DNA of 55,976 bases from Candidatus Cerribacteria bacterium 'Amazon FNV 2010 28 9'. Lineage in GTDB: Bacteria > Patescibacteriota > Microgenomatia > UBA1400 > UBA12028. Below are positions 2,412-37,392 of the stretch, in pieces; within the stretch, counting starts at the first letter, position 1; the number at the start of each line of letters is the position of its first letter. Both the position numbers and the translations under genes were made by a program. The stretch spans positions 1 to 55,976 of the forward strand of contig PSRQ01000023.1 in NCBI GenBank assembly GCA_003176165.1, given 5' to 3'. The notes beneath the pieces were generated by a model, which was not told the origin of the DNA, searched no databases, and saw only the letters and a program-made list of their open reading frames with translations.

Positions 2412-2741
2412 TTACTTTAAATCACTGAGAAGATTTTCTACTGTTTTTTGTATTGCATCTTGGATTTCTTTTTCTATATCTTTTGTTCCGTGTTCTCGTA
2501 AGAAGCCAATATGTGTAATGTCTGAGGGATTTTCATGAAAACGGATGATGAATGACTCATGTTTTTCTTGTGGAAGTCTTTCGAGCATATACATAAGCAT
2601 GTGTGTATGGATGATTTCTTCAATATGATCAAGGATGATGGCTTTTTCTTCGACCGTCGCATCAATCCCATTCAACGTCACCTGTACTTTTTCCCAAGGA
2701 ATGAGGTGGTCATAAAATAGTGTTGACATATATATTTTCAT
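2412..2741 (-). CDS. Hypothetical small acidic protein (last gene of the T4SS-like operon)
   Basis: ORF trimmed to the ATG at 2741 (MKIYMSTLF...) to avoid overlapping the upstream gene. No recognisable motif. Confidence 0.45.
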   Translation of the reverse strand: MKIYMSTLFYDHLIPWEKVQVTLNGIDATVEEKAIILDHIEEIIHTHMLMYMLERLPQEKHESFIIRFHENPSDITHIGFLREHGTKDIEKEIQDAIQKTVENLLSDLK

Positions 2742-2772
2742 TCCAAATATCAAATACCAACTTTCAAGAACG

Positions 2773-3666
2773 TCATTTCTTTGCGATGTATCTCGGTTGT
2801 GCCTGTTCAACTGGTCCAAGAGCAATTTTCTGATTGCTCTCATCAATAAACAACATGACGACGGGACCCTTTTGTTTTCCATCTTTCATATTCAAGTATT
2901 GCATTAGCTCAGGCGATCCTCCAAAACTTTTTCCTGTCCATCCGGCAGGGCCAGCATCTGCAATATCGGCAATAATTGATTTCCCATTTTTCGGATTGAT
3001 AACCAGCATTTTACGGAACTTATAAAAGGAGACAATCTTTTTTACATTTCCTGACCAATTTGGTAAGTACATGATCGGAACTGCGACGTAGTATTTTTCT
3101 TCCAAATATGCTTCCTCCGTCATCTCTGACTTGCTTGGTGCAAAGTAGCCAAATCCTCCCAAGCCGGCTGTGATGCCTTCTTTTTGAAGTGCGTCGTGTT
3201 GGCTAACAGTATCGCCGGGATAGCGGGGAAGATGCTGTTCTTGGCCGATATATCCATACGTGGTAATCAAATGATTCCCATCCAAGTTTGCAGTAACGTT
3301 GATTCCCAATGTTTGATTGACGAGATCACTGATCCGATCTTCCGTCGGAGGAGAAAGTGGACCAATTTTTTGAGGAAGGATATTAGAAAGCTCTGTTTTC
3401 ATGATATCAGTCAACTGGTCAGTAGAAAGTTTTTCTTGTATCTGTGTGGGATGAACAACGTGCTGAATGATTGGTGCTGTTGCGAGCACCCCTCCGGCAA
3501 TGGCCGCTGCCGAAAGAATATTGGCACTGTGTCGACGTAGATCTTTAAGTGAGAATCCAAGTTCTTGAAGTTTTTTATGCGCATTCGGAAAACGCGATTG
3601 GAGTTGTTGGTTGGCTTGTTGCGCTTGGGAAGAAAGCCGAGTATGAAGATCTGTGGGGGTAGGCAT
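2773..3666 (-). CDS. Membrane-anchored protein with possible RlpA-like double-psi beta-barrel C-terminal domain
   Basis: One N-proximal TM segment (ILSAAAIAGGVLATAPII). The C-terminal pattern MLVINPKNGKSIIADIADAGPAGWTGKSFGGSPELMQYL resembles the V.N..NGKS..V.V.D.GP...DLS core of RlpA/DPBB domains. Judged by eye only. Confidence 0.55.
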   Translation of the reverse strand: MPTPTDLHTRLSSQAQQANQQLQSRFPNAHKKLQELGFSLKDLRRHSANILSAAAIAGGVLATAPIIQHVVHPTQIQEKLSTDQLTDIMKTELSNILPQKIGPLSPPTEDRISDLVNQTLGINVTANLDGNHLITTYGYIGQEQHLPRYPGDTVSQHDALQKEGITAGLGGFGYFAPSKSEMTEEAYLEEKYYVAVPIMYLPNWSGNVKKIVSFYKFRKMLVINPKNGKSIIADIADAGPAGWTGKSFGGSPELMQYLNMKDGKQKGPVVMLFIDESNQKIALGPVEQAQPRYIAKK

Positions 3667-3760
3667 AGTCGGTATTTCTATCCACTATACAAGCTCTATG
3701 CAAAAACTCAACAACTCTTTTGAGTGATTCGGAGAATGTGCGTTAAAAATGCGGAAATAG

Positions 3761-4165
3761 TTATTTTATTTCCATTGCAAGAATATCTTGTGGCCAATGA
3801 ATTTTTGAAGAAGGTGGGGATCCAAACCTATTTTTCTTTGATTGTCCTTGGGCGAAAAGCAGATAAAGAACAAACAATAAGTTGATATAGGGAACCAATT
3901 GCAGAAGGATAAACCATCCTGATTTTCCGAGATCATGCCAACGGCGAATGAAGAGAGAGAGGTTGATTGTAAGACCACAGATAGAAACAACGAGCCAGAT
4001 GAGGAAGAAGATGATAGTTGAGAATGAAGACTCGAAGGATCCTGAACTTGGAAAAAAGAAACTCATAAGTAAAAGAGGTATCATCATGCACAAAAAAACG
4101 GTAAGTATTCCCAATATGAAAGTACGCCGATTGATCCGTCCTTGGAAAAGTTTGCCGATGTCCAT
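3761..4165 (-). CDS. DUF805-family inner membrane protein
   Basis: GRINRRTF at the N-terminus, several TM helices, then IRRWHDLGKSGWFILLQLVPYINLLFVLYLLF...NRFG, the classic DUF805 pattern. Confidence 0.85.
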   Translation of the reverse strand: MDIGKLFQGRINRRTFILGILTVFLCMMIPLLLMSFFFPSSGSFESSFSTIIFFLIWLVVSICGLTINLSLFIRRWHDLGKSGWFILLQLVPYINLLFVLYLLFAQGQSKKNRFGSPPSSKIHWPQDILAMEIK

Positions 4166-4175
4166 ACAAAGTTCC

Positions 4176-6047
4176 TTATTGTTGTATCGTCGTCATTTGC
4201 TCTGGAGTGAGTTGTTGTTGCGCTTGTGCTGTCTGTTGTCTTCTTAAAATTTCTTCAGGATTGGTAGTGATGAGCGAGTACTCGACATCACTGGCGATGA
4301 CACGGATGGCGACGTGATTTTGACCTGCGAAAAAGAGACCCTCTCCGACATCTGCTGAAAGCAATAATCGTTTTTCTCCTTCAGACAAAAAGAACGTTTC
4401 TCCAAGTCGAGGGATAGCAACTGATGATTGTTTCATGAGCAATTGAATAGAGGAGTTGGAGACAATTGGTTTTCCCCATTCGCTATTCAAGAAATCTTCG
4501 ACATCTTGTGTAATGGTGGTGATTCCGAGAAAATATTTACGAGCCCGCTTAGCCATTGAGTGTAAAAATGACGCTGTATCTTTGTACTTCATAAAGTACC
4601 AGGCTTCATCGACGACTAAAATGCGTTTTTTCAAGTTGCGCTTCACTCTCGTCCAGACGAAATCAAGAATCATGAACATCGCGATTGGGCGCAACTCTTC
4701 TTCCAGCTCTTTGACAGAAAACACTGTGAATTTGTTGGTCAGGTCGAAGTTTGATTTTTGATCGAAAATTCCACGGAAACTTCCTTTTACAAATTTTTCT
4801 AACCGTGCGGCAAGATTGGCAGATTCTTGTGTTTCCATCCCGATGAGCACTTTGTAGAGATCTTCAAGCAATGGTGGTTCATTTGATTGAGTGGCAGGAT
4901 CGTGTGTAATACCTTTGGTTTTGTAGGCTGCGACGATGGCACGGTCAATGATGGCGTCTTCTGTGGGACTCATCTCGCCCATCATGACGCGCAAAAGTGA
5001 GTGAAGTGTGATGATCTTGGTTCCCAACTCATTTTGTCCTTCTTCATACACAGTCGAAAGATCGAAAGGATTGATTTTGACCGGAGAATCAAAGTTGAAG
5101 TTCACATACTCACCACCAACAGCTGTACACATATCTTCGTACTCATGTTCTGGATCGAGAATAATCATCTCTGTATCAAACATGAGATAGCGATATGCTT
5201 CCAACTTCACGGCGAATGATTTCCCTGCACCCGACTTGGCAAAGACGACCATGTTGGCATTTTCCATCGAGAAACGGTCAAATATAACAAGAGAATCATT
5301 ATGCTCGTTGATACCATACACAATTCCCGTCTCACTGGTTAACTCAGAAGAAGTGAATGGAAAAGTCGTCGCGAGGGAAGTTGTATCCATGTTGCGTGAG
5401 TACTGCAAGCGGTCAATTCCAGCAGGGAGAGTCGTTTTAAACCCTTCTTCCATCTGTAAGGTAGCGTTTTTGCTCACGATCAACAAACTTCCAAGTGTGC
5501 TCTGAATTTGTTTCGTAATTTTATTAAGTTCTTCGATGGTTGGCGATGAGATGGTGATATACAAACCAAACTGGAAGAAACGCTCTGCTCCTTTGGCAAG
5601 CTGTTCCTGGATGACGCGCGCATCTGCTAATTTGATTTCAGTATCAATATTGCTAATTTTTCCCTGCTTAATATCGGAAGAGAGCTCTGCCTCCATCTCT
5701 GTAATTTTGCGTCGCAAGTCATTTAAAATCTTGGCACTATCGACGGGGTAGATGTACATCGAAATGTCCATGGATTGGGGAAAGTTGATGAGGGGAGAAA
5801 GCCAGTTGGCGGGTACAGAACGAGGATAGCCAGAAATGAAGAGTGTACGTGTATACACAGAATTAATTCGCTGATAATTGAAATCAACTTCAATTGCCTC
5901 AGGTGCAATGATATCAAGAACGCTCACCAATCCAGACGAAAATTTTTCAAGATCTGACGACAAATCTTGTTGCTCTTTGGTTTGTGGTGTGGTTGTTACT
6001 CCCGTTTTAGTGGGAGGTTTGAGTAATGTAAATAAATTAACGGGCAT
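4176..6047 (-). CDS. virB4: VirB4/TrbE/PrgJ-family type IV secretion ATPase
   Basis: 623 aa. Walker A VFAKSGAGKSF, Walker B ILVVDEAWYF, then ARKYFLGITTITQDVEDF. The N-terminal domain has the IAPEAIEVDFNYQRINSVYTRTLFISGYPRSV pattern typical of Gram-positive VirB4 homologues. Confidence 0.9.
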   Translation of the reverse strand: MPVNLFTLLKPPTKTGVTTTPQTKEQQDLSSDLEKFSSGLVSVLDIIAPEAIEVDFNYQRINSVYTRTLFISGYPRSVPANWLSPLINFPQSMDISMYIYPVDSAKILNDLRRKITEMEAELSSDIKQGKISNIDTEIKLADARVIQEQLAKGAERFFQFGLYITISSPTIEELNKITKQIQSTLGSLLIVSKNATLQMEEGFKTTLPAGIDRLQYSRNMDTTSLATTFPFTSSELTSETGIVYGINEHNDSLVIFDRFSMENANMVVFAKSGAGKSFAVKLEAYRYLMFDTEMIILDPEHEYEDMCTAVGGEYVNFNFDSPVKINPFDLSTVYEEGQNELGTKIITLHSLLRVMMGEMSPTEDAIIDRAIVAAYKTKGITHDPATQSNEPPLLEDLYKVLIGMETQESANLAARLEKFVKGSFRGIFDQKSNFDLTNKFTVFSVKELEEELRPIAMFMILDFVWTRVKRNLKKRILVVDEAWYFMKYKDTASFLHSMAKRARKYFLGITTITQDVEDFLNSEWGKPIVSNSSIQLLMKQSSVAIPRLGETFFLSEGEKRLLLSADVGEGLFFAGQNHVAIRVIASDVEYSLITTNPEEILRRQQTAQAQQQLTPEQMTTIQQ

Positions 6048-6097: not shown

Positions 6098-7282
6098 CTA
6101 TAAACTGCTAACTGGCGGTGTTGGTGGCTTTAAATCACTATTAAACACAGGTTCTTCCTTCAAACTTACATTAGGTGCGATTGATGGTTGTAAGGGTGGG
6201 GTAACAGGTTGAACAAACACTGTCTGCGGTTGCATGTTCTGTGCAGTTGATTCTTGAATATTGATACTGGATATTTCCACCGAAGGTGGTGTCGGTGGTT
6301 TTAAATCCAACGGCGTTGATTGTAACGCGGATGGTGTCATGTGAAGGGTTGGTGTTTCACTGACCATTGGAGATTGTATGATTGGTTTAGGTTGTTCAAC
6401 CGTTTGTTGTGATGGCAGAGTTGCGGGATTCACCGACTGAGAAGGTTGGCTTGATGTAACTGGTGCAGCTTGAGCTGGAGACGAAGCGACAGGATTGGCA
6501 GCTACTGGAATTTGTGGTGCTGCGGGTTGAGTAGAAGGTTGTGCTTGCTCGTCTGGATGCTGGGGAAGTTGGGCTTGATCTTCACTGACACGCAAGTTTG
6601 CTTGGACGAGAGGCGTGGTGTATGCCGATGAATCACTCACTTTTAGTCCTTTTGCAGATTCTGGATTATAGATTGTATAAAAGAGCTGGATAAGCTCTTG
6701 CGTTTTGAGTTGTTGGGCGTACAAGCCGATACGGGCGCATTGATGAATTAAGTGATCCCGGCGTGGGCCTAGAATGGTGGCAGCTTTTTCCAACACGGCA
6801 TATTTGTCAAAGACAGGAACCGTTTTGGTTGTTTTCGGAAGCCCTGGGACGACCGACGCACTTCCAGGAACACCGAGTTCAATTGGTGATGCTGTAATGA
6901 TAATGTAAAACTTTTTTTCCAAGACATTGCGCTCTTGGACGAGTTGCTCAATAAACATGCGATAATCGCGAATTTGTTTTTTCTGAAGCGGATTATATGC
7001 GTGGACCTCTTGGTTCTTTAACAACTCCAGATAGCCCGAGACATCTTTTTGTTGTGAGCGAATAACAATTTCGATAGGAAAGGAAAGTGAATTGAGAAGG
7101 GCGGCATATGCATAGATCGTCGCATCCTGCTCTTCTTCGGAAAACAAATCGAAATTGATCGCGCTCGTGTTGAGCACCAAAGAACAAGATCCATCTTGGA
7201 GCAAGATGAGGTCATTGGTAATATCACTAATTTCGAGATATTTTTGTGTCGTCGACTGGATGGCGTTGGATTGCGTAACCAT
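6098..7282 (-). CDS. T4SS-associated protein: VirB4-N-domain-like region without ATPase, plus a Pro/Gln-rich tail
   Basis: The N-terminal ~220 aa (YLEISDITNDLILLQDGSCSLVLNTSAINFDLFSEEEQDATIYAYAALLNSLSFPIEIVIRSQ) parallels the non-ATPase N-domain of VirB4-like proteins. The C-terminal ~160 aa is low-complexity P/Q/S/T-rich with DLKPPTPP occurring twice. Confidence 0.7.
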   Translation of the reverse strand: MVTQSNAIQSTTQKYLEISDITNDLILLQDGSCSLVLNTSAINFDLFSEEEQDATIYAYAALLNSLSFPIEIVIRSQQKDVSGYLELLKNQEVHAYNPLQKKQIRDYRMFIEQLVQERNVLEKKFYIIITASPIELGVPGSASVVPGLPKTTKTVPVFDKYAVLEKAATILGPRRDHLIHQCARIGLYAQQLKTQELIQLFYTIYNPESAKGLKVSDSSAYTTPLVQANLRVSEDQAQLPQHPDEQAQPSTQPAAPQIPVAANPVASSPAQAAPVTSSQPSQSVNPATLPSQQTVEQPKPIIQSPMVSETPTLHMTPSALQSTPLDLKPPTPPSVEISSINIQESTAQNMQPQTVFVQPVTPPLQPSIAPNVSLKEEPVFNSDLKPPTPPVSSL

Positions 7283-7425: not shown

Positions 7426-8484
7426 TTACGTTGCTTGAATAAGGATAGGTTGCAAGATCGTGTCATTGACGACAAGCAATGTCTTCTCAAACGTTAATCC
7501 ATTTTTCTCGACAGCAATTTCGTACTCACCTTTGGCAAGTGGCGTGACGATAGCAAACTGTCCCAGCGCATTGGTTTTGAGAGCTCTGGCTGGTGTGCCA
7601 TCGCTGCGGCGAACAATCTCCACGATCGCATTATCGACAATTTTTTGATCCGGAGTAAGCACCATCCCCACAACCATATTTGGTTTGCTGGGTGGTGCAG
7701 GAAAGGGAAGTGCTGTGCTCATGCGTACGGGTTGAAGTGATTCATCTGTTTTTTGCGTATGTTCGCTGCTCCCAATTTCTTGAGGAGCAATTGCTGCAAG
7801 GGGTTTGGATTCTGGTAGGGGAACAGTAGCGGTTTTTTTGACTTCGACTGGTTTTGCTGGTTCAAGCGGAGCGTTAACTGATGCCACGAATACCTCTTTT
7901 TCTGGTGCGGTTGTTTTAGCAGGAGATGATTGAATAGATGTGTCTGGTTGATTGGCATGAATAGTGGGGGTTGTAAACGTTGGTTCGATCAAAGGAGCTG
8001 AAAAGAGCTTCATGATACCATCGATGGCACCTTTTTCATCACTCCACATATCTGCTTCTTGTCCCTCTGGTGCAGAAACTGTCTGTAGAAAGTCATTGAC
8101 GCGTTGGGAACGTAAATGTGTAAGGTCAACATCTTGGACTGTAGTCGTAACCACCAGTGTGGTGGGTGCTGTATAGTCAAAAACTTCTGGGCGAGGATTG
8201 GTTTTTTTCCAGTAAAAAAGTGTGGGCTTGTAGATGGAAGCGAGGAAGGCAAAAAACCATCGATCCAGTGGGCGGCCTTCGTACGGGACAAACGCAAGCG
8301 CTGCTCCTCCCAAGACAAAGGTAATCATCAGTGGCCATTTAAACAGCGCGGGTGTACCAACCGCGTTGACGATGACAGCTCCAAGCACTCCACCTCCGAG
8401 CAAAAAAAATTGCTTGAGTGTCATTTGTCCAATCAAGTGGAACTCATAGCCGGTGACGTTTTGTGGAACTGGATGTTCTTGCAT
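7426..8484 (-). CDS. PrgI-family (VirB3-like) membrane protein fused to a carboxypeptidase-regulatory-like beta-sandwich
   Basis: N-terminus VPQNVTGYEFHLIGQMTLKQFFLLGGGVLGAVIV followed by a second TM matches the PrgI family pattern. The C-terminus MVVGMVLTPDQKIVDNAIVEIVRRSDGTPARALKTNALGQFAIVTPLAKGEYEIAVEKNG resembles a CarboxypepD_reg domain. Confidence 0.75.
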   Translation of the reverse strand: MQEHPVPQNVTGYEFHLIGQMTLKQFFLLGGGVLGAVIVNAVGTPALFKWPLMITFVLGGAALAFVPYEGRPLDRWFFAFLASIYKPTLFYWKKTNPRPEVFDYTAPTTLVVTTTVQDVDLTHLRSQRVNDFLQTVSAPEGQEADMWSDEKGAIDGIMKLFSAPLIEPTFTTPTIHANQPDTSIQSSPAKTTAPEKEVFVASVNAPLEPAKPVEVKKTATVPLPESKPLAAIAPQEIGSSEHTQKTDESLQPVRMSTALPFPAPPSKPNMVVGMVLTPDQKIVDNAIVEIVRRSDGTPARALKTNALGQFAIVTPLAKGEYEIAVEKNGLTFEKTLLVVNDTILQPILIQAT

Positions 8485-8548: not shown

Positions 8549-9547
8549 TTATTTTGAGAAGTTAATTGCAGGTGTGATCGCATTAACAGGAACAGAATTT
8601 CCGTCGACGGTTGCTGTTGCGGTGATGTGTATAAAGGGAATAAGCAGGTTTTGGTCTACATCAAATCGATATTCTATCTCCATCGTATCGATAGAAAGAG
8701 TTGAAATTTCTGAAGAAGATAATCTCTGCTGTGTGGCATCAGTCACACTGATGAGCCCCTTTTGAATATTTTGTTTAATTTGATCTGCTGTAAATGGGGT
8801 GATGACTTGATTGGTCTGCGTGACCGATATATACGGAGGAATAATGGCTTTCACGATTCCTTTTGTGCTGATGATGAATTGTAGTTGCGAAGGAACCGCA
8901 TTACCGATCCCTACTCCTGTCCCATTAAAACTCAATGTATAGATAAACATCCCTTGTGACGTTGGTATTTCACTGACTCCTGCATCTTCATCACCATTTT
9001 GGTAATAAATAACTTGCGGCGAATCAAGGTTGATCTCGGACTGAGGATATCCAATTTTTTGCAAAAATTGTTGAATATGTGTCACTGCAGTTTCCTTTGT
9101 GATCACACCATTACTTGCATTGGTATCTGACAGTGAATTGTTTGTATTCACGTATTGGATGGTTCCGTCATTCCCAAGGGGAGAGATAATAATACTTCCA
9201 TCACTACTCTGATACGCGTTTTGCACTTTCGTATTTTGCTCAAATTGAAACGCCTGTGTGGTACTGGGAAGAAAAGCTTGCGGTTGATATTGATTGACTT
9301 GCAAAACAGGAACTGGAGAAGTTGAAATGCTACTAGACGGTGAAATTGTCACTTGCTGGACTTGGATAGCATTTTTAGTGAAAAAAGTAGGCGTTTGGAT
9401 TTGAACTGCTGTTTTTTTCTGATTTGGAGTAAGAAGAACGAGAATCATTCCAATCAAAACGAAGCAACAGAGAACAACTCCTAAGGTAAGAAAAGGGTGT
9501 TTACGAATTACTTGAGCGAGTTGTTTTAAAAACTGCATGATCTTCAT
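8549..9547 (-). CDS. Single-pass membrane protein, positional candidate for a VirB8/PrgL/TcpC-like component
   Basis: Start set at the ATG at 9547, one nt after the upstream TAA stop; the track uses a GTG at 9583. There is an N-terminal TM (FLTLGVVLCCFVLIGMILVLL) and a ~300-aa extracytoplasmic part. The functional assignment is positional only. Confidence 0.65.
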   Translation of the reverse strand: MKIMQFLKQLAQVIRKHPFLTLGVVLCCFVLIGMILVLLTPNQKKTAVQIQTPTFFTKNAIQVQQVTISPSSSISTSPVPVLQVNQYQPQAFLPSTTQAFQFEQNTKVQNAYQSSDGSIIISPLGNDGTIQYVNTNNSLSDTNASNGVITKETAVTHIQQFLQKIGYPQSEINLDSPQVIYYQNGDEDAGVSEIPTSQGMFIYTLSFNGTGVGIGNAVPSQLQFIISTKGIVKAIIPPYISVTQTNQVITPFTADQIKQNIQKGLISVTDATQQRLSSSEISTLSIDTMEIEYRFDVDQNLLIPFIHITATATVDGNSVPVNAITPAINFSK

Positions 9548-13717: not shown

Positions 13718-13877
13718 GATATTGTCCTCTTTACTTTTTAAATGAGCGATTTGAATATTATAAGCCTATAAATACAAAAAAGGAATAGAGAGGTTATTCA
13801 AAGAGAAAAGAGAAGGTTGAGTAGTAAAAGGCACCTTCTCATATGAAAAAGATTTGGGTAGTGGTTCGGAAGAAGAG

Positions 13878-14195: not shown

Positions 14196-14316
14196 TGTAG
14201 AATCTCCAACTTTTACAGAATGGAAAACTACTCAATTGAGCCTATAGCTATTTTATCTGCTTTTGTGTAGAAGTCAATAAAAAGGGGCGTCTTTAGGGCG
14301 CGCCCGTTCCCATCTG

Positions 14317-28698: not shown

Positions 28699-28750
28699 AC
28701 ATTCTCCTCTTTTTTCTTTGGACGATTACGATGTGATGTCCAGAGTATAG

Positions 28751-28778
28751 TATATACCACTCTCATTTACTTTTGCAA
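28751..28778 (-). promoter_or_regulatory. Sigma70-like promoter for pilin P2
   Basis: The minus strand reads TTGCAA - 16 nt - TATATA. AGGAG sits just upstream of the ATG at 28698. Confidence 0.45.
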
Positions 28779-28804
28779 ATTTTTTACATCAATGCAAAGA
28801 ATCA

Positions 28805-29278
28805 TTATTGCAATGAACAAGGAATGAGTCCGGGTGAACAATGGTCGTACGGGGGGCAGATCTTTGCAACTTGATGACCTCCTTTAGCTGTACAATCTGA
28901 AGGTGCTGTGCACCAAGGACTACATTGTGCACTCGAAGAACCACCTCCATTACCACTCAATGTAATATCGGTAATACCAAAGAATTTGAGCAAGATGCCG
29001 TAGAGCGCGAACACTGCTGCAAAGATTGCAAGGCCGATGATAGCTTGTGTGATCATTTCGCGTGCATGTTCTACTTTTCCTTTGTCGCCACCAGCAGTGA
29101 TCCAGTTGAATCCACCGAGTAACAAGTAGAGCAGGACAGCCAGCGCTGCGACGACGAGAATTGCTCCTGCGCCCATCTCAACGAGATGACCCAAATCTGT
29201 TACTTTTGAAATATTGCCAGAAACAGCTTGAGATTGAATATCTAATACATTTTGAGCGATGAGAGTAGATAGAATCAT
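28805..29278 (-). CDS. T4SS pilin paralogue P3 with a Cys-rich C-terminal extension
   Basis: Core LLLGGFNWITAGGDKGKVEHAREMITQAIIGLAIFA. The tail GGGSSSAQCSPWCTAPSDCTAKGGHQVAKICPPYDHCSPGLIPCSLQ has 6 Cys. ATG at 29278 lies 1 nt after the upstream stop. Confidence 0.8.
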   Translation of the reverse strand: MILSTLIAQNVLDIQSQAVSGNISKVTDLGHLVEMGAGAILVVAALAVLLYLLLGGFNWITAGGDKGKVEHAREMITQAIIGLAIFAAVFALYGILLKFFGITDITLSGNGGGSSSAQCSPWCTAPSDCTAKGGHQVAKICPPYDHCSPGLIPCSLQ

Positions 29279-29279
29279 A

Positions 29280-29693
29280 TTAATTAGCACAAGGCTTTCC
29301 TGGTACGCAAGGAGCAGGTGCAGTACCTCCTACTGGTGTAATAGTAACGTTATTTTCGAAAGACGGTTTTAAGAGGGGAATGCCAAGGCGATCACCAATA
29401 AAACCTGTAATAGCTACTGTTCCTACGAGTACAAGCATCCCAATAATCGATTGAGTAATTCTCTCACGAGCCTGTTCGATTTTACCTTTTTCGCCACCGG
29501 CTGTGATCCATTCAAAAGCTCCAATGACAAGCATGATAAGAAGAGCGAGGCCTCCGAGAGTAATGGCAGTCCTCCATACGGTAACAATGATATTTGTGAG
29601 TGCTAGTGCTGGAGCCACTCCACCTTGACCACCAAACGTACCAGTCACCACAGGGTTTGTAATTTCTTCGGATTGTGCAATGAGTGCAAACAT
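29280..29693 (-). CDS. T4SS pilin paralogue P4
   Basis: Core LVIGAFEWITAGGEKGKIEQARERITQSIIGMLVLV. Short C-terminal tail with 2 Cys. Confidence 0.8.
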   Translation of the reverse strand: MFALIAQSEEITNPVVTGTFGGQGGVAPALALTNIIVTVWRTAITLGGLALLIMLVIGAFEWITAGGEKGKIEQARERITQSIIGMLVLVGTVAITGFIGDRLGIPLLKPSFENNVTITPVGGTAPAPCVPGKPCAN

Positions 29694-29697
29694 AAGT

Positions 29698-30087
29698 TTA
29701 TGGTTTTAATGATTGTAATATTCGAGCAGGACTTAAGATGTCAATACCTAGAACACCACCAATGATTCCGGCAATTCCATACGCTGCAATAACGATGATG
29801 AGACCAAGCGCAGCATTCACCATTTGTTGCCTTGCATGCTCAATTTTACCTTTTTCTCCACCTGCAGTAATCCACTCTAGAGCTGCAAAAATGAAGTAAA
29901 TCAAAAACATGAGACCAGCTAGCGTGGTGAGAAAACCTAAGAAAGAAGAGAGGAAATGACTCAATTGATCTCCCGCAGCATTACCAGCACCGACAAGATT
30001 GGTTTCCCCCGCAACTGGAGCAAAGGCAGAAGAGGCGGGTTTTAATTGGCCGAGTGGAATGTTGTTGAGTTGTGCAATCAGTGACAT
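29698..30087 (-). CDS. T4SS pilin paralogue P5
   Basis: Core FIFAALEWITAGGEKGKIEHARQQMVNAALGLIIVI. Confidence 0.8.
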   Translation of the reverse strand: MSLIAQLNNIPLGQLKPASSAFAPVAGETNLVGAGNAAGDQLSHFLSSFLGFLTTLAGLMFLIYFIFAALEWITAGGEKGKIEHARQQMVNAALGLIIVIAAYGIAGIIGGVLGIDILSPARILQSLKP

Positions 30088-30088
30088 A

Positions 30089-30463
30089 CTATGGTCCTAA
30101 TTTTCCGACACCTTGAATGTGTGGGTTTAAGATGAATGTTGCATCTCCAAAGAGCAGGAAACTAACGATCGCTGTAATTGTGAAGGATCCGACGATAATA
30201 ATTAGACCAATTAAGCTGTAGAGAAGTTTATTGTTTGCTTCTTCAGCTGCTTTGGGATTGCCACTTGAACCGAGCCAAGTAAAACCTGCGGAAATGATAT
30301 TAAATGCTCCGAAAAGTCCGGCGACAACTGTAATAACCTTGAGCATGGTATTGATAAAGGGAACAAGTCCTAATCCTGTACCACCACTGAACGCTTGAAG
30401 AGGAGAGGGCTCTGGAAGTTGTCCAAAAATCGAATCAGCGATGAGATGCGGTGGCACAATCAT
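30089..30463 (-). CDS. T4SS pilin paralogue P6 (SSGNPK subtype)
   Basis: Core NIISAGFTWLGSSGNPKAAEEANNKLLYSLIGLIIIV. Confidence 0.75.
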   Translation of the reverse strand: MIVPPHLIADSIFGQLPEPSPLQAFSGGTGLGLVPFINTMLKVITVVAGLFGAFNIISAGFTWLGSSGNPKAAEEANNKLLYSLIGLIIIVGSFTITAIVSFLLFGDATFILNPHIQGVGKLGP

Positions 30464-30472
30464 ACGATTATT

Positions 30473-30826
30473 TTACAACGTTGAGCTAAAAATTGGTACT
30501 CCTGTAATCAGTTCAACCAATCGGACTAACCAGTACGCAACAAAGATAACGACAAAACCAAGAATAGCGCCTGTGATAGCTTGTGTTCCTTTTTCGGTAG
30601 CTTTAGGATTTCCAGCTGAGGAAATGATCATAACTCCACCAAACACAAGATAGAGGAGAAGGATAAAGCCAGCCAGCACAAAAGCGTTTGGGAGGATTAG
30701 CTGAAGAAAATCTTTTACTTGGTTGTATTTCCCCACATCACCTCCAACAGTAGTACCTGTGTTGGGATTTAGAATTAAACTTTTTCCTAAATCAAAGCCC
30801 CCTGAAGACGATTGTGCGAGTAACAT
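30473..30826 (-). CDS. T4SS pilin paralogue P7 (SSGNPK subtype)
   Basis: Core LVFGGVMIISSAGNPKATEKGTQAITGAILGFVVIF. Confidence 0.75.
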   Translation of the reverse strand: MLLAQSSSGGFDLGKSLILNPNTGTTVGGDVGKYNQVKDFLQLILPNAFVLAGFILLLYLVFGGVMIISSAGNPKATEKGTQAITGAILGFVVIFVAYWLVRLVELITGVPIFSSTL

Positions 30827-30856: not shown

Positions 30857-32095
30857 TTATTCATTAGGAAAATCAATTTGCCAATCTTCTTGACCAGCTT
30901 CGTTGCCTGTGTCTATTACGACAGAATTTCCTGTTGAATCCCAAATAGCATTCCAAATGTACCATTGACCATTGATTTGTATATTTCTTTGGCCATCTGG
31001 TTGAACAATAGATATGAAGTAAAAAGCATCAATATCTGATCGATACGTTTCGTAAATAATCCACTTTCCACTAGGAGCCCAGACAGCATGGTGACCCGTC
31101 GCTATTGTGCGGACATAATTTCCATTTACGTCTAGAATTATAATGTCATGATCGTGATGTGATGTTGCAATTCCGTAGTCAGAGAGAACAATAAATTTCC
31201 CATCAGGAGACCAAGAAGCAAAACTGTATGGTTTTTCCCAATTATAGCTTTTTAAAACCTTTAAATTAGCTCCATTAATATCCGAAACTATGATCTTACT
31301 TTCTTTAGCATCTTGGTCATATGAAGTTGTAACCAATTTGTTTCCATCAGGGGAAAAAGAAACAAACCCTGAATTTTGGAAGGATCCAACAATTCTGCCT
31401 GAAGGATCTTTAATTATGAGATTCCCATCACCGTCTAATGTAGCAACTTTAGTGGAATCTGAGGATGTTGCAGGGTTGTCCATGTAGTTGGGCCTAGGGT
31501 AGGACGATTTCCCTGAAAGCTTAGTAATCACGGGATTATCAATTTTTACCGGAACTTTAGTATGAATTTCTGTAGGGATTTCGGTTGGAGTAAGAGTATG
31601 TGTTGGTGAGGGTGTACTTGTGGGTACTGCAGCACTCGCTTGTCCGTTTTTGGATTCTGCAATTAGCCCAATACCTACTGCAAGAGCAAGTACAGCCCCA
31701 CCAAAAAGTGCAACAGCCTTGGTATTTATTGGTTGTTGTTTTTGTTCCTCCTCTTGGAGACTAACTGAAATGTTAATAAAATGGGTTGGTCGTCCCTCTA
31801 TCTCTACGCGAATCGTCTCTTCTACTGTTTCTCCTAGTTGGCCTGCAATAGTGGTGTCAACTGTAAAGGAAAAACGAAGAGGGAAGAGTCCATACGCATT
31901 TTTGGGAAGCATCACTTTTGTGGCCCAGGCGGGTTGATCCACCCACCCAAAACTTCCTAACTCTGCCATACTGCTTCCATGTAAATCGAATAAAACGGTT
32001 ACCGTTTCTTTTCTTCCTCTTTGAAAAGGACCAAGCTCTACAAAACGGTTTATTTCATCTGGCTCTTCGTGGTGTCTTTTGTATTCTTTCCCCAT
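30857..32095 (-). CDS. Membrane protein: ~150-aa cytoplasmic domain, TM, Thr/Pro linker, TolB-like beta-propeller
   Basis: PD40-type motifs FSPDGNKLVTT, SWSPDGKFIVLS, VWAPSGKWIIYE. TM is AVALFGGAVLALAVGIGLIA. Start set to the ATG at 32095 so it does not overlap the divergent sigma gene. Confidence 0.75.
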   Translation of the reverse strand: MGKEYKRHHEEPDEINRFVELGPFQRGRKETVTVLFDLHGSSMAELGSFGWVDQPAWATKVMLPKNAYGLFPLRFSFTVDTTIAGQLGETVEETIRVEIEGRPTHFINISVSLQEEEQKQQPINTKAVALFGGAVLALAVGIGLIAESKNGQASAAVPTSTPSPTHTLTPTEIPTEIHTKVPVKIDNPVITKLSGKSSYPRPNYMDNPATSSDSTKVATLDGDGNLIIKDPSGRIVGSFQNSGFVSFSPDGNKLVTTSYDQDAKESKIIVSDINGANLKVLKSYNWEKPYSFASWSPDGKFIVLSDYGIATSHHDHDIIILDVNGNYVRTIATGHHAVWAPSGKWIIYETYRSDIDAFYFISIVQPDGQRNIQINGQWYIWNAIWDSTGNSVVIDTGNEAGQEDWQIDFPNE

Positions 32096-32183
32096 ATATG
32101 ACCTTATATAATAAATCAAGGCGTGATTATAGGTATGTCTCGATGTGAAGTCAAGAGAAGAGAGAAAAGTGTACAATAGGTAC

Positions 32184-32732
32184 ATGTTTGGTACTGATAC
32201 TCCGTCGTTTATCAATGCAATGAAGAAAGGTGAGCAGCGGGCTATCCGAGCATGGTACACCACATATGCTCCCAAGCTTGCTTCTTTTTTTTCATCGCGC
32301 ACTCGTGTGGCGAGTGATGTCGATGAGCTTGTCCATGATACATTTCTTTCGTGCCTTTCCTCACTTCCGCTTTTCCGTGCGGAAAGTGGCTTGTGGTCGT
32401 GGATGATGGGGATTGCGAGACATGAATTGTCGGATTATTACCGCAAGTTGTATGCAAAACGAGTCATCCATGCGTTACCACTTGGAGACACGCTTTTGGA
32501 AGCAGCAGAAAAACAAACATCAGGAAAGCATGAGGATACACTCGCGACACTGGCACGTTTGCCCAAGACAGTGGCAGAGCTTTTGCGCCTCAAGTATATC
32601 GATAAACAACCTGTGGAGCAGATCGCACAAGCGTTGTCGATCGAGCCGCACGCAGTGCAGGGGAGGTTGTACCGGGCGCGAAAAGCATTTAAAAAACTCT
32701 ACGATGAAATAGCAGAAGCAGAAAACACATGA
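32184..32732 (+). CDS. ECF-type sigma-70 family RNA polymerase sigma factor
   Basis: Region 2: DELVHDTFLSCLSSLPLFRAESGLWSWMMGIARHELSDYYRK. Region 4 HTH: LPKTVAELLRLKYIDKQPVEQIAQALSIEPHAVQGRLYRARKAFKKL. Confidence 0.85.
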   Translation: MFGTDTPSFINAMKKGEQRAIRAWYTTYAPKLASFFSSRTRVASDVDELVHDTFLSCLSSLPLFRAESGLWSWMMGIARHELSDYYRKLYAKRVIHALPLGDTLLEAAEKQTSGKHEDTLATLARLPKTVAELLRLKYIDKQPVEQIAQALSIEPHAVQGRLYRARKAFKKLYDEIAEAENT

Positions 32733-32968
32733 AATCACGTGATCCTTTTTTACAAGAACTTGAACTGCGAGCCAAAGAGCAGGCCCGTATTGCGCAGTCT
32801 TCTCGATTACCACAAGTTGTGCGTCCTTTCGCAGCCTTGTTTGGTGAGAGGTCTTGGCAGATGCTCCTGGGCATATCTTTTATACTCGCTGGCGTACTTG
32901 CGACTTGGTCATTTCGCTTTCTGTATATGATGTATGAGAAAGGAGTGTTGCAATGGCTCGTACGGTAG
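32729..32968 (+). CDS. Small single-TM protein, positional candidate anti-sigma factor
   Basis: ATGA overlap with the sigma-gene stop. 79 aa with one TM (MLLGISFILAGVLATWSFRFL). No ZAS motif. Confidence 0.5.
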   Translation: MKSRDPFLQELELRAKEQARIAQSSRLPQVVRPFAALFGERSWQMLLGISFILAGVLATWSFRFLYMMYEKGVLQWLVR

Positions 32969-33291
32969 TCAAGCGTGCAACAGAGGTCGTGGTTCCCGAA
33001 GTGGTGCTCAGCTACCACATCGGGGTAGTGGCAGTGGGGTTACTGCGTCATCCCTATAAAACGGTACAAGATGTTGTGCGTTCCAAAATTCCGGGAATTA
33101 TTATTCTTTTTCCCATATTTGTGTGGATGGTAGCGAGTATTATCCTTCGTGTTTTTGACGATCTTTTCTTTGCATTTATCCCGTTTATTGGTTTCTGGTG
33201 GTTCTTTTTTGTATGGGTGAGTGTGTTTACACTTTTGTGGCAAATTCTTCTTCTGTACCTGTATTTTCGTTTTTCAAGTGTGATGAAGTAA
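32953..33291 (+). CDS. Small polytopic membrane protein
   Basis: 112 aa with 3 hydrophobic helices. Overlaps the preceding ORF by 16 nt, consistent with an operon. Confidence 0.5.
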   Translation: MARTVVKRATEVVVPEVVLSYHIGVVAVGLLRHPYKTVQDVVRSKIPGIIILFPIFVWMVASIILRVFDDLFFAFIPFIGFWWFFFVWVSVFTLLWQILLLYLYFRFSSVMK

Positions 33292-35649: not shown

Positions 35650-35800
35650 GTCATCCCGGCCATGGCTCTGCGACGCAGAAGCCAAGTAGCCGGGATCTTT
35701 TTGGAATTCGCGCTCTACAATTCAATCCTCACTTGTTAAAAGATCCCTGATACTCGGAATGATCCATCGTAAACTCAGGATCATCCGCGTCAGGGATGAC
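35650..35800 (-). repeat. Family-1 composite MITE-like element, copy 3 (inverted orientation)
   Basis: Its reverse complement aligns module-for-module with 33301-33465 and 28031-28175, ending gcgtcagggatgac. Confidence 0.8.
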
Positions 35801-35845
35801 GAAGTACAAGAATAGTAAGAAAAATAAAAATGCGGAGAAGTAAAA

Positions 35846-36205
35846 CTATCCAACGATACTCACTCCGAGAATGAGCTCGACGATACGCGCGAGCCAGTAG
35901 GCGCAGAAGATAATAAGAAACCCAACCAAAGCAGTGGTGATACGTTGTCTGCCTGCTTCTTGTTGTTTGGGATTGGTGGCTCCGGTGAGCATTTCAAATC
36001 CTCCCCACACAATCATGACAAAGAGAATGAGACCTGCGGCTGTAAACAAGTAGGGCATAAGGGAAGTGATGATGCCACGAGGAGTGACTTGATCGGGAGG
36101 CACGGCGTTTTTATCCGAGAGCGCTTTCCCGCCAGTGCCAAAAATTGCATTGTTCACGTTGGTGAACAAATCTTTGGTGCTGAGTGATGAATCTGCAAGC
36201 AACAT
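35846..36205 (-). CDS. T4SS pilin paralogue P8 (SSGNPK subtype)
   Basis: Core IVWGGFEMLTGATNPKQQEAGRQRITTALVGFLIIF. Confidence 0.75.
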   Translation of the reverse strand: MLLADSSLSTKDLFTNVNNAIFGTGGKALSDKNAVPPDQVTPRGIITSLMPYLFTAAGLILFVMIVWGGFEMLTGATNPKQQEAGRQRITTALVGFLIIFCAYWLARIVELILGVSIVG

Positions 36206-36214
36206 ATATTTCCT

Positions 36215-37288
36215 TTAGACTCCAAATCCTGGGATATGGAGAAGTGTGACACCGATAAAGTGTAAGATGATAGCCGAGAAAATCACGAACAAAAGTCCGA
36301 TGATCGCGGCACTAATCATTTGTTGGGCTTCTTCGACTTGTTTGGGATTGCCGCTGCTGGTGGCGAGCATAAATGAGCCAGCAAGGATCGCCAATACGAC
36401 AATTCCGCCCGATAATCCTAACCCTATTTGAACAATCGACGTAACTATTCCTGAAAGATTGGTAGGAACACAACCAAAAGCGGTCCACAAAGAGTTTGGT
36501 TGACCTTTATCTCCCGTTGTTCCTGTCATATCTGCACTATTTGCTCCATAGCATTTTTCACATGCTAATTTGTCTTCTGCTGAGCCTGCTTGATTACACA
36601 GGGAAAAGTATGCCGGAGTGGTAGTCGTAGACGAACCCCCGCCATTTTTTATCTTGCTGTATGAATCTTGTGATTTAAAGAAACAAAAATTTTGATGGTC
36701 GGCTAGTTCTGCTACACACTCACAATCTTGAGCTTGAACTCCAGCATCAGAGGGGCTATTGAAGCATAATTTATATGTATTTCCATGCGTTCCATGATCA
36801 CAAGAACTATCACTGTATGAATAACAATCAGAAGTAGGAGCAATTTGTGAAACCTTCAATAATTGAGAATTACCACAAACGATAGGGTTCGGGAGGGCAA
36901 CAATATTGACGTAGTACTGGTATGTACCCGCATTGGGTTCATTTTTTATAAAAGAAACATTGCAACCAGTGTCTGTGTTTGAAAAAGTAAGATCTTTTGT
37001 TGGGACCACATAATCAGAAGCGTGATTAGAACCACAGCTATTGTCACTGGTGTTGCAAAAACTAATAGAGATGTTGTTATTTGTAGAACTACAATTGCCA
37101 CCAGTAATGCTACTTGGAAGAGTAAAGCTAACATTGGTAGTGCTTCCTGGCTGAATTTCAGAAGGTGAAATTGAAGAAGAAACGGAAGAGCATGCAGAAT
37201 CTGCCCAAGCTTTTTTTGGTTGCGCGAACACAAGGGTAAAAAGAGAAAAGAACAAAAACAGAGCGATCAATGTCGTGACGCGCTTCAT
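36215..37288 (-). CDS. Cys-rich secreted domain fused to a C-terminal T4SS pilin module (P9)
   Basis: Signal peptide MKRVTTLIALFLFFSLFTLVFAQP. A ~280-aa Ser/Thr/Asn/Cys-rich region follows, then ILAGSFMLATSSGNPKQVEEAQQMISAAIIGLLFVI. Confidence 0.75.
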   Translation of the reverse strand: MKRVTTLIALFLFFSLFTLVFAQPKKAWADSACSSVSSSISPSEIQPGSTTNVSFTLPSSITGGNCSSTNNNISISFCNTSDNSCGSNHASDYVVPTKDLTFSNTDTGCNVSFIKNEPNAGTYQYYVNIVALPNPIVCGNSQLLKVSQIAPTSDCYSYSDSSCDHGTHGNTYKLCFNSPSDAGVQAQDCECVAELADHQNFCFFKSQDSYSKIKNGGGSSTTTTPAYFSLCNQAGSAEDKLACEKCYGANSADMTGTTGDKGQPNSLWTAFGCVPTNLSGIVTSIVQIGLGLSGGIVVLAILAGSFMLATSSGNPKQVEEAQQMISAAIIGLLFVIFSAIILHFIGVTLLHIPGFGV

Positions 37289-37392
37289 ACCCAGTAATTC
37301 TACCACTCTAAGGCGTAAGAAAAAAGTAAGACTTGATCTACTTCTTTCTTCGTTGGTCGACGTTTGGTGCAAATCCTGCTAGGATAGAACAC

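What the first reader, a model, noticed from the sequence alone, without database searches (positions are those of the whole stretch)
2412..37372. Origin-proximal ~35-kb Gram-positive-style T4SS/pilus-like island with no visible DNA-transfer machinery
Starting right after dnaN, a mainly minus-strand block encodes several T4SS-type parts. These are a PrgI/VirB3-like protein (7426-8484), a VirB4 ATPase (4176-6047) and a VirB4-N-domain-like protein (6098-7282). A positional VirB8/PrgL candidate sits at 8549-9547, an M23+CHAP PrgK-like hydrolase at 9549-13232, and a VirB6/TrbL-like protein at 19032-20870. Nine VirB2-like pilins are also present. I see no relaxase, VirD4-type coupling ATPase, VirB11, integrase or oriT-like element in the window. 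The block is wired to a giant secreted enzyme, TolB-like propellers and an ECF sigma factor. That content fits a chromosomal pilus or contact/secretion apparatus better than a conjugative element. VirB4/VirB6/pilin sets are known to occur in CPR-type genomes, but the accessory parts here have no assigned roles. The accessory parts are DUF805, a DPBB-like protein, three DUF4177-like proteins, the propellers, the 1640-aa enzyme and the 1144-aa orphan.
Basis: partly seen in the sequence, partly recalled or inferred. Interest (0 to 1): 0.8.

Follow-up and report, generated by a model that had tools for sequence, protein, structure and literature searches.

The report
Patescibacterial chromosomal type IV secretion locus
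This is the non-conjugative type IV secretion and pilus gene cluster that most ultrasmall Patescibacteria (CPR) carry beside their replication genes; the kind was published in 2023-2025, so this is a well-preserved further example rather than a new system.

Summary
The window is a whole 55,976-bp contig of a Candidatus Cerribacteria genome assembled from a metagenome (Microgenomates group, Patescibacteria). Directly after dnaA-dnaN it encodes:
- a VirB4 ATPase of the Gram-positive CD1110 type
- a TrsD-like protein that is a split-off VirB4 N-domain
- a PrgI/VirB3-like protein
- an M23+CHAP hydrolase
- nine mutually related VirB2-like pilins
- a 612-aa membrane protein with no HMM hit, whose predicted fold best matches R388 TrwI/VirB6

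No relaxase, coupling ATPase, VirB11 or integrase was found in the window, nor by the precomputed gene calls in four relative loci.

The order PrgI-TrsD-VirB4 followed by dnaN-dnaA recurs in most of 80 related genomes, so the cluster is inherited core chromosome and not an ICE.

Three labels are unsupported: DUF4177-like, DPBB-like and VirB8-like. The PD40 propellers, DUF805 and the small ORFs are lineage-specific.

- a divergent VirB6 family
- a conserved bitopic partner family (the 344-aa protein)
- seven pilin paralogues with one-to-one orthologues in fixed order
- a position next to VirB6 that is always occupied by a large protein of hypervariable sequence

The parts
25..897 (+). dnaA, C-terminal part (cut by the contig start)
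   Evidence: 86% identical to the gene annotated Bac_DnaA in L084; found in 57 of 80 loci near VirB4
1301..2407 (+). dnaN, convergent with the T4SS block
   Evidence: 54% identical to the DNA_pol3_beta gene of L084; found in 55 of 80 loci
2412..2720 (-). Small protein of about 102 aa, unknown function. Only this C-terminal part of ORF 2412-2882 is conserved.
   Evidence: 41% identity over residues 55-153 to a 102-aa gene at the same position in L084; no family hit
2773..3666 (-). 297-aa protein with one N-terminal TM anchor, unknown function. The 'DPBB-like' label is not supported.
   Evidence: 58% identical to the 300-aa gene between VirB4 and dnaN in L084 only; no Pfam, NCBIfam, PHROG or PDB hit; TM at 48-68
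3761..4165 (-). DUF805 membrane protein, a lineage-specific neighbour
   Evidence: Pfam DUF805 5.1e-23; absent from all 84 related loci
4176..6047 (-). VirB4 ATPase (MPF_FATA/CD1110 type) lacking the canonical N-terminal ~165 residues
   Evidence: NCBIfam conju_CD1110 1.1e-118, residues 24-582 on profile positions 168-735 of 752; Pfam P-loop_TraG 3.3e-31; the 120 best of thousands of mostly Patescibacterial homologues are 69-85% identical. Walker A (GAGKS) and a Walker B-like VVDEAW are read directly from the translation.
6098..7282 (-). TrsD-like protein: a split-off VirB4 N-domain followed by a Pro/Gln/Ser-rich tail
   Evidence: Residues 13-131 match CD1110 profile positions 2-121; VirB4_plasma 1.1e-7; TrsD 5.9e-4. 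Present next to VirB4 in 76 of 80 loci.
7426..8484 (-). PrgI/VirB3-like protein with two TM helices and a C-terminal beta-sandwich-like domain
   Evidence: Pfam PrgI 4.7e-11 and CarboxypepD_reg 3.7e-5; TM at 21-39 and 46-66; present in 69-70 of 80 loci
8549..9547 (-). 332-aa bitopic membrane protein of a fast-evolving family that travels with the T4SS. A VirB8/PrgL role is possible but untested.
   Evidence: Only itself found in the indexed search. Iterated search finds the family in 23 loci, either just upstream of PrgI or between VirB4 and dnaN. 26% identical to the orthologues in L082 and L084. No PDB profile hit. The model is too poor to use: pLDDT 48.
9549..13232 (-). 1227-aa cell-wall hydrolase (M23 + CHAP), the PrgK/VirB1 functional equivalent. 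Its stop overlaps the start of the next gene.
   Evidence: Pfam M23 7.6e-12, CHAP 1.3e-5; large M23 proteins at the same position in L082, L083/L084 and L004; a terminator-like hairpin at 13300-13276 lies just upstream
13316..15338 (-). Five small ORFs: two membrane proteins and three soluble ones that share a short GWE/GWK-containing motif. Lineage-specific. The 'DUF4177-like' label is not supported.
   Evidence: No family hits; only the 80-aa ORF has a match, in L082; weak mutual motif similarity
15500..18934 (+). 1144-aa soluble, highly charged protein, convergent with VirB6. It occupies a position that is conserved while the sequence there is hypervariable.
   Evidence: No Pfam, NCBIfam, PHROG or PDB hit. 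Only 5 related 50%-identity clusters among 1.84 billion proteins. 35% identical to the same-position gene of L082. Ten other loci carry unrelated large soluble proteins in this position.
19032..20870 (-). VirB6-like polytopic membrane protein: a divergent family with a Gly-rich C-terminal extension
   Evidence: 248 homologues, and none of the 120 listed has a Pfam domain. AlphaFold core pLDDT about 90. Top 5 PDB fold matches are all R388 TrwI/VirB6. Present upstream of PrgI in 18-19 loci.
20973..25895 (-). 1640-aa secreted multidomain protein: signal peptide, a weak SGNH/GDSL-like N-domain, a conserved central region, and an extra C-terminal part
   Evidence: Pfam Lipase_GDSL_2 0.0048, below cut-off. 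Its residues 275-1207 align with the proteins directly upstream of VirB6: 579-1207 and 584-1188 at 35-37% identity in L083 and L082, and 275-1207 at 28% in L081. The L083 orthologue carries GDSL hits. An N-terminal hydrophobic segment lies at 5-25.
26308..26784 (-). VirB2-like pilin, the last of the seven-gene array
   Evidence: T4SS_pilin 5.2e-7; reciprocal best hit to the last pilin of the arrays in L083 and L081
26865..27854 (-). PD40 beta-propeller protein inserted in the pilin array (lineage-specific)
   Evidence: Pfam PD40 6.7e-11; absent from L081-L084 and from the 80 loci
28321..30826 (-). Six tandem VirB2-like pilins: 28321-28698, 28805-29290, 29280-29693, 29698-30087, 30089-30463 and 30473-30826
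   Evidence: T4SS_pilin 2.9e-11 to 4.5e-4; two TM helices each; one-to-one reciprocal best hits in the same order in L083 (58-81%) and L081 (42-69%)
30857..32302 (-). PD40 propeller protein with a cytoplasmic N-region and one TM helix (lineage-specific). The true start is probably near 32095.
   Evidence: Pfam PD40 1.7e-5; TM at 192-217; absent from relatives; a sigma-70-like promoter match of 11/12 at 32154-32126
32145..33291 (+). ECF sigma factor (32145-32732), a 79-aa single-TM candidate anti-sigma factor (32729-32968) and a 4-TM protein (32953-33291), divergent from the pilin operon
   Evidence: Sigma70_r2 8.5e-10, r4_2 4.9e-9. The same three-gene unit lies next to the pilin array in L081 and L083; the ECF gene is 43-65% identical.
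35846..37372 (-). Second pilin locus: a 119-aa pilin and a 385-aa protein with a Cys-rich N-terminal domain fused to a VirB2-like C-terminus
   Evidence: T4SS_pilin 2.2e-9 and 4.6e-4. Both are related to the other pilins. The same pair lies beside a SpoIID-like gene in L025, and large pilins head the arrays of L038 and L060.
37333..39156 (+). SpoIID-like cell-wall enzyme with a coiled-coil N-region, divergent from the second pilin pair
   Evidence: Pfam SpoIID 1e-14; the adjacency to the pilin pair recurs in L025

Best explanation
This is the chromosomal, vertically inherited type IV secretion system characteristic of Patescibacteria, here in Candidatus Cerribacteria (Microgenomates group). 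It descends from the Gram-positive (MPF_FATA) conjugation machinery and has lost, or never kept, the DNA-processing module.

Shown here:
- One gene run encodes the M23+CHAP hydrolase, a bitopic partner protein, PrgI/VirB3, TrsD (the detached VirB4 N-domain) and the VirB4 ATPase. Its genes are closely spaced or overlapping and a terminator-like hairpin lies just upstream; that it is a single operon is inferred.
- A second run encodes seven distinct VirB2-like pilins, a large secreted protein and a divergent VirB6-like channel protein.
- An ECF sigma / anti-sigma-like unit sits next to the second run.
- A further pilin pair lies beside a SpoIID-like enzyme.

Inferred mechanism. The hydrolase opens the cell wall. 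VirB6, VirB3, TrsD and VirB4 form the membrane translocon. VirB4 powers assembly of a VirB2-type pilus from a fixed set of major and minor pilins. The apparatus mediates contact with, and probably protein transfer to or from, a host cell, as required for epibiotic growth in the one tested relative (Southlakia). It does not conjugate DNA.
For: Identity of the organism and of VirB4:
- Source organism and Patescibacterial lineage.
- VirB4 passes the CD1110 equivalog cut-off. The 120 best of thousands of mostly Patescibacterial homologues are 69-85% identical to it.

Other parts:
- TrsD-like, PrgI, M23+CHAP and nine pilins have profile hits.
- The VirB6 fold match is to R388 TrwI.

Conserved position:
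- Conserved order in 80 loci: TrsD in 76, PrgI in about 70, dnaA and dnaN in 57 and 55.
- Full-length synteny holds in the closest relative, which has an 85% identical VirB4, with housekeeping flanks.
- No relaxase, T4CP, VirB11 or integrase was found in the window or in the four relative loci with gene calls (precomputed Pfam).

Published support:
- Tn-seq shows the homologous cluster and its pilin array are essential for epibiotic growth, and that cluster also lacks a recognisable relaxase and coupling protein.
- The survey of 3,035 genomes describes the same composition, the dnaA/dnaN proximity and the pilin arrays.
- A review makes the same points.
Against: - No function has been measured in any member of the Microgenomates group. 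The substrate is unknown even in Southlakia.
- The VirB6 assignment rests on a fold match with modest scores (TM 0.33-0.43, E about 0.01) and on position only.
- No VirB8-like subunit could be demonstrated.
- A T4CP or an unconventional relaxase could sit on another of the 65 contigs of this genome assembly.
- A pilus has never been seen on these cells.
Confidence: 0.85

Rival explanations
1. It is an ordinary integrative conjugative element whose relaxase, coupling protein and integrase lie outside the contig.
For: The window is a single contig of an incomplete genome assembly. VirB4 belongs to a conjugative family, CD1110. T4CP homologues are frequent elsewhere in Patescibacteria genomes.
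Against: The cluster occupies the same site beside dnaN-dnaA in 55-57 of 80 genomes from several candidate phyla. In four relative loci with gene calls both flanks are core genes: rpmH, rnpA and yidC on one side, and NUDIX, the amino-acid-kinase gene and UppS on the other. No integrase or att-like flanking repeat was found. Relaxases lie near virB4 in only 15 cases among 3,035 genomes.
Confidence: 0.03
2. It is a DNA- or nucleotide-uptake machine (ComB/Ced-like) that feeds an organism unable to make nucleotides.
For: VirB4 shows weak similarity to the archaeal DNA importer CedB (4.8e-13, far below cut-off). Patescibacteria lack nucleotide synthesis. No export substrate is known.
Against: In Southlakia, competence depends on ComEC and type IV pili. 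Deleting comEC does not affect viability, whereas the T4SS is essential. No DNA-binding or ComB-specific component was detected in the window.
Confidence: 0.07
3. The 35-kb 'block' is not one system. A compact conserved T4SS core happens to be surrounded by unrelated neighbours, and the accessory genes have no role in it.
For: The PD40 genes, DUF805 and the small ORFs are absent from all related loci. Housekeeping genes interrupt the block here, and FtsH and others do so in L081.
Against: Some accessories are conserved in position: the hydrolase plus 344-aa family pair; the central region of the 1640-aa protein; the ECF unit; and the occupied position next to VirB6.
Confidence: 0.5

Closest known systems
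Patescibacteria-clade T4SS (Southlakia epibionticum SEML1_0006-0019, Wang et al. 2023; survey by Quiñonero-Coronel et al. 2025)
   Same: Gram-positive-type VirB4 with TrsD, PrgI/VirB3, VirB6, M23-type hydrolases and an array of divergent VirB2-like pilins. No relaxase or T4CP in the cluster. Chromosomal location beside dnaA/dnaN.
   Different: Here the VirB6 is too divergent for any HMM. The survey reports VirB6 as scarce in Microgenomatia. There are nine pilins in two loci. A close subgroup adds an ECF sigma unit and a giant secreted protein with a weak GDSL-like N-domain. The PD40 propellers and DUF805 are private to this lineage.
Enterococcus pCF10 Prg/Pcf and other MPF_FATA conjugative T4SSs (pGO1 Trs, CTn2 CD1110)
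   Same: Homologous VirB4 (CD1110 equivalog), PrgI, TrsD, a PrgK-like multidomain hydrolase and a PrgH/VirB6-type channel protein.
   Different: No relaxase, T4CP, oriT or adhesins of the PrgB type. It has VirB2-like pilins, which Gram-positive systems lack. The gene order differs. It is chromosomal and vertically inherited.
R388 Trw / Agrobacterium VirB (MPF_T) systems
   Same: VirB2-type pilins (weak TrbC/VirB2 hit) and a VirB6-like fold.
   Different: No VirB5, VirB7, VirB9, VirB10 or VirB11, and no outer-membrane complex. The cell envelope is monoderm.

Membership tests
Patescibacteria-clade T4SS (MPF_FATA-derived) | VirB4 of the MPF_FATA lineage that clusters with Patescibacterial homologues | tested here: met
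   conju_CD1110 equivalog at 397.6 bits against a cut-off of 325. The 120 best of thousands of mostly Patescibacterial proteins are 69-85% identical. No tree was built here.
Patescibacteria-clade T4SS (MPF_FATA-derived) | TrsD-like and PrgI/VirB3-like genes adjacent to virB4 | tested here: met
   The adjacency holds in 76 and about 70 of 80 loci respectively.
Patescibacteria-clade T4SS (MPF_FATA-derived) | Array of sequence-divergent VirB2-like pilins near virB4 | tested here: met
   Nine T4SS_pilin proteins, 22-53% identical to one another
Patescibacteria-clade T4SS (MPF_FATA-derived) | No relaxase or coupling protein in the cluster | tested here: met
   None among about 50 scanned ORFs in the window, and none in the four relative loci with gene calls (precomputed Pfam). 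The rest of the genome was not available.
Patescibacteria-clade T4SS (MPF_FATA-derived) | Chromosomal position near dnaA/dnaN (Paceibacteria and Microgenomatia) | tested here: met
   The first gene of the block ends 5 bp after dnaN. The same holds in 55-57 of 80 loci.
Patescibacteria-clade T4SS (MPF_FATA-derived) | VirB6-type polytopic channel subunit | tested here: met
   Met at fold level only. The top 5 PDB matches are TrwI/VirB6, probability 0.96-1.0, TM 0.33-0.43. The HMMs fail.
Patescibacteria-clade T4SS (MPF_FATA-derived) | Requirement for epibiotic growth | not testable with these tools
   Shown only for Southlakia by Tn-seq
VirB8 / PrgL / TcpC (NTF2-like bitopic subunit), for the 344-aa protein | N-terminal TM helix plus an NTF2-like extracellular domain | tested here: inconclusive
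   The TM helix is present. There is no sequence or profile hit to solved VirB8-like structures. The single-sequence model has pLDDT 48 and its fold matches are meaningless.
Integrative conjugative element | Relaxase, T4CP, integrase and att sites; variable presence among relatives | tested here: not met
   None found. The locus is syntenic across genera.
DUF4177 (three small proteins) and DPBB (297-aa protein) | Match to the family profile | tested here: not met
   No hit to either family even at E<=10

The most novel reading that the evidence does not exclude
In Microgenomates-group genomes the position immediately next to the VirB6-like gene, on the opposite strand, is always occupied. The occupant is a large (540-1240 aa), soluble, highly charged protein without any known domain. 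Its sequence is unrelated from one lineage to the next, even between genomes whose VirB4 proteins are 80-85% identical.

This would fit a polymorphic cargo or effector position for the T4SS, which would give the long-sought substrate of the Patescibacterial T4SS.

Alongside this, the seven pilins form an old, fixed-order set of differentiated subunits rather than a recently amplified variable array. The 612-aa and 344-aa families would be the VirB6 and VirB8 equivalents reported as scarce or missing in this class.
Probability: 0.25. Interest if true: 0.6.

Novelty: new member of a known kind. Interest (0 to 1): 0.3.

Why it matters
The T4SS of Patescibacteria is one of the few machines known to be essential for the epibiotic life of this very large and mostly uncultivated group, and what it transports is unknown. 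This locus adds nothing categorically new. It is, however, a complete and well-ordered example from the Microgenomates group, and it helps define the parts list where HMMs fail: a divergent VirB6, a conserved bitopic partner, and a fixed set of seven pilins. It also points to a hypervariable large protein next to VirB6 as a candidate substrate worth testing.

Tried and rejected
- **HMM support for VirB6.** Pfam and NCBIfam on the 612-aa protein and on 58 homologues gave only one TrbL hit, at 0.008. A PDB profile search gave nothing. Only the fold search helped.
- **VirB8 test of the 344-aa protein.**
  - The indexed homologue search found only the protein itself.
  - A PDB search with a profile of 22 family members found nothing credible.
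  - The single-sequence model was poor and its fold search uninformative.
- **Domains in the 1640-aa and 1144-aa proteins.** Pfam, NCBIfam, PHROGs and PDB gave nothing beyond a weak GDSL hit. By eye, the C-terminal part of the 1640-aa protein has motifs reminiscent of phosphodiester glycosidase and lytic transglycosylase domains. No tool supported this, so it is not claimed.
- **DUF4177 and DPBB labels.** No hits even at E<=10.
- **Homology among the opposite-strand proteins next to VirB6.** phmmer, jackhmmer and a family profile found none beyond two pairs. Pfam found nothing in ten of them.
- **att-like flanking repeats.** Only short intergenic hairpin repeats turned up.
- **Promoter scan.** Counts were no higher than in shuffled sequence, so the sites are quoted only as positions.

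Full report
**Source and gene map**

The VirB4 protein of the window is identical to a GenBank protein of 'Candidatus Cerribacteria bacterium Amazon FNV 2010 28 9', found on a contig of 55,976 bp. The window is therefore that whole contig. The organism belongs to the Microgenomates group of the Patescibacteria. Its genome is a 1.06-Mb assembly from Amazon pasture soil, in 65 contigs and about 84% complete. The paper describing it does not mention a secretion system.

G+C content runs from 0.38 to 0.49 with no sharp break. GC skew on the + strand is positive over essentially the whole window, apart from two 2-kb windows at about zero. The only RNA gene is a tRNA-Ser at 49.9 kb.

**Observation check**

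Confirmed parts:
- 4176-6047 is a VirB4 ATPase. Pfam gives P-loop_TraG 3.3e-31. NCBIfam gives conju_CD1110 at 1.1e-118, above the curated cut-off.
- The VirB4 match covers profile positions 168-735. Positions 2-121 of the same profile are matched by the upstream 394-aa protein, which also touches TrsD.
- 7426-8484 is PrgI/VirB3-like with a C-terminal beta-sandwich-like domain.
- 9549-13232 carries M23 and CHAP domains. 3761-4165 is DUF805.
- Nine proteins hit the T4SS_pilin model. Six are above the gathering score, one is just below it and two are weak. Each has BLASTP matches to most of the others at 22-53% identity, and each has the two hydrophobic helices of VirB2.
- Two PD40 propeller proteins and an ECF sigma factor are present.
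- About 50 scanned ORFs across the whole window show no relaxase, VirD4/FtsK-type coupling protein, VirB11 or integrase.

Not confirmed:
- 'DUF4177-like' and 'DPBB-like' have no hit even at E<=10.
- The VirB8 guess could not be tested (see below).
- The block is not continuous. An amino-acid-kinase-fold gene (probably isopentenyl phosphate kinase) and UppS lie at 33936-35616, between the main cluster and the last two pilin genes.

**The VirB6 candidate**

The 612-aa protein has 248 homologues, and none of the 120 listed carries a Pfam domain. Of 58 members scanned one by one, a single one touches TrbL/VirB6, at E = 0.008. A profile search of PDB sequences found nothing.

An AlphaFold model built on a 58-sequence alignment is confident in the membrane core: residues about 170-470 have pLDDT about 90. 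Its five best PDB matches are all chains of TrwI/VirB6 from the R388 T4SS, with Foldseek probability 0.96-1.00, E 0.009-0.034, about 300 aligned columns and TM 0.33-0.43 normalised to the target. The next hits have probability 0.33 or less.

Together with the conserved position, I accept a VirB6-like role with moderate confidence. This fits the published remark that VirB6 is 'scarce' in Microgenomatia, 'suggesting extreme sequence divergence'.

**The 344-aa protein**

The indexed search found only the protein itself. An iterated search over the ORFs of 80 related loci shows it belongs to a fast-evolving family found in 23 loci. Members are bitopic, about 330-350 aa long, and share a C-terminal motif of the form EYRxD..LxPxYxFxG.

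The family always lies next to the T4SS core, in one of two places: just upstream of PrgI, as here, or between VirB4 and dnaN beside an M23 hydrolase. The orthologues in the two closest relatives are only 26% identical.

Whether its fold is NTF2-like (VirB8, TcpC, PrgL) remains open:
- no PDB profile hit
- single-sequence model pLDDT 48, with meaningless fold matches

**Comparative context**

A scan of one genome per species returned 80 loci with VirB4 47-82% identical, nearly all from the Microgenomates group. Within 10 kb of VirB4:
- TrsD is present in 76 loci
- PrgI in 69-70
- dnaA in 57 and dnaN in 55
- the VirB6-like gene and pilins in 18-19, a count limited by the 10-kb flanks

The usual order is pilins, VirB6, a variable stretch, PrgI, TrsD, VirB4, 2-6 kb of variable genes, then dnaN and dnaA convergent with VirB4.

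The closest relative has an 85% identical VirB4 and is covered by loci L083 and L084. It carries, in order:
- an ECF sigma unit
- seven pilins
- a 1486-aa GDSL protein
- VirB6
- a large opposite-strand gene
- an M23 hydrolase
- the 336-aa family member
- PrgI, TrsD and VirB4
- homologues of the 297-aa and 102-aa proteins
- dnaN and dnaA
- rpmH, rnpA and yidC

In the four relative loci with gene calls the flanks on both sides are core genes, and no relaxase, T4CP or integrase appears in their precomputed Pfam annotation. The cluster is therefore inherited chromosome and not a mobile island.

**Which accessories belong to the system**

Conserved with the system:
- the hydrolase plus 344-aa family pair
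- residues 275-1207 of the 1640-aa protein, which align with the protein directly upstream of VirB6 in L081, L082 and L083 (28-37% identity). Its GDSL-like N-domain is shared with L083 only, and its C-terminal 430 residues are extra.
- the ECF sigma factor, a 79-aa single-TM protein and a 4-TM protein, which lie as a unit divergent from the pilin array in L081 and L083
- the 297-aa and 102-aa proteins between VirB4 and dnaN, in L084 only

Not conserved anywhere examined: both PD40 genes, DUF805 and four of the five small ORFs at 13316-15338.

**Additions beyond the literature I read**

1. The seven pilins of the main array are reciprocal best hits, one to one and in the same order, with the arrays of L083 (58-81% identity) and L081 (42-69%). 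Paralogues within the window are only 22-53% identical. The array is therefore an old set of differentiated subunits and not a recent amplification.
2. In all eleven related loci where the flank of VirB6 could be read, as in the window, the gene next to VirB6 on the opposite strand encodes a large soluble protein without TM helices, 25-36% charged, 540-1240 aa long and with no Pfam domain.
   - Twelve such proteins fall into ten unrelated sequence classes.
   - A profile of the 1144-aa family detects none of the others.
   - That family has only five further 50%-identity clusters among 1.84 billion proteins.
   - A variable cargo or effector position is one reading and a rapidly replaced cytoplasmic partner is another. 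Neither was tested.

**Comparison with what is known**

- Wang et al. 2023 showed by Tn-seq that the homologous cluster of Southlakia (SEML1_0006-0019) is essential for epibiotic growth. It resembles Gram-positive conjugative systems, has essential pilins, and lacks a recognisable coupling protein and relaxase.
- Quiñonero-Coronel et al. 2025 found VirB4 in 2,417 of 3,035 Patescibacteria genomes, as a monophyletic clade nested within MPF_FATA. TrsD was the commonest partner. They also report PrgI/VirB3, rare VirB6 and VirB8 hits in Microgenomatia, M23-containing VirB1-like proteins, VirB2 arrays of 2-11 genes, almost no relaxases, and proximity to dnaA/dnaN in Paceibacteria and Microgenomatia.
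- A 2025 review repeats these points.

This locus is a further, well-preserved member of the kind.

**Verdict**

Novelty: a new member of a known kind. Interest is low to moderate.

Noticed in passing
window 15500-18934 (+); L081:12018-15638, L082:7001-10486, L083:12116-14752, and L013, L017, L021, L025, L039, L055, L074: The position next to the VirB6-like gene, on the opposite strand, is always filled by a large, soluble, highly charged protein with no known domain. Its sequence is unrelated between lineages: ten classes among twelve proteins. The window's version has only five related clusters in 1.84 billion proteins.
   Followed up: yes
window 26308-30826; L081:3001-6475; L083:1733-4772: The seven pilins of the main array have one-to-one orthologues in the same order in two relatives (42-81% identity), although paralogues are only 22-53% identical. 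The array is an old, fixed set.
   Followed up: yes
window 32145-33291 (+): An ECF sigma factor, an overlapping 79-aa single-TM ORF (candidate anti-sigma factor) and a 4-TM protein form a unit. The unit is conserved, divergent from the pilin array, in L081 and L083.
   Followed up: partly
window 26201-26251, 28057-28143, 33344-33465: A repeated intergenic element with a GC-rich hairpin (ATCCCGGC...GCCGGGAT). Its first two copies flank the pilin at 26308-26784 plus the inserted PD40 gene, and the third lies after the ECF unit. A 30-nt core occurs twice against 0 expected by chance.
   Followed up: partly
window 34799-34867 and 39189-39257; 46731-46791 and 51667-51715: Two further pairs of intergenic repeats: a 69-nt pair at 87% identity containing a CCTGC/GCAGG hairpin, and exact 20-nt and 26-nt matches 4.9 kb apart. 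They look like small REP- or MITE-like elements.
   Followed up: no
window 2412-32302 (- strand) relative to dnaA-dnaN (+): The T4SS genes are transcribed towards dnaN/dnaA, that is, head-on to the replication direction implied by the positive GC skew across the window. The same convergent orientation holds in most of the 80 related loci. oriC itself was not located.
   Followed up: partly
window 35846-39156; L025:19200-21803: The second pilin pair (a 119-aa pilin and a 385-aa pilin with a Cys-rich N-domain) sits divergently beside a SpoIID-like cell-wall enzyme. The same trio occurs next to dnaA in L025.
   Followed up: partly
window 46871-49294 (-): A 508-aa protein with no family hit follows a double-zinc-ribbon protein. 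It lies outside the T4SS region.
   Followed up: no
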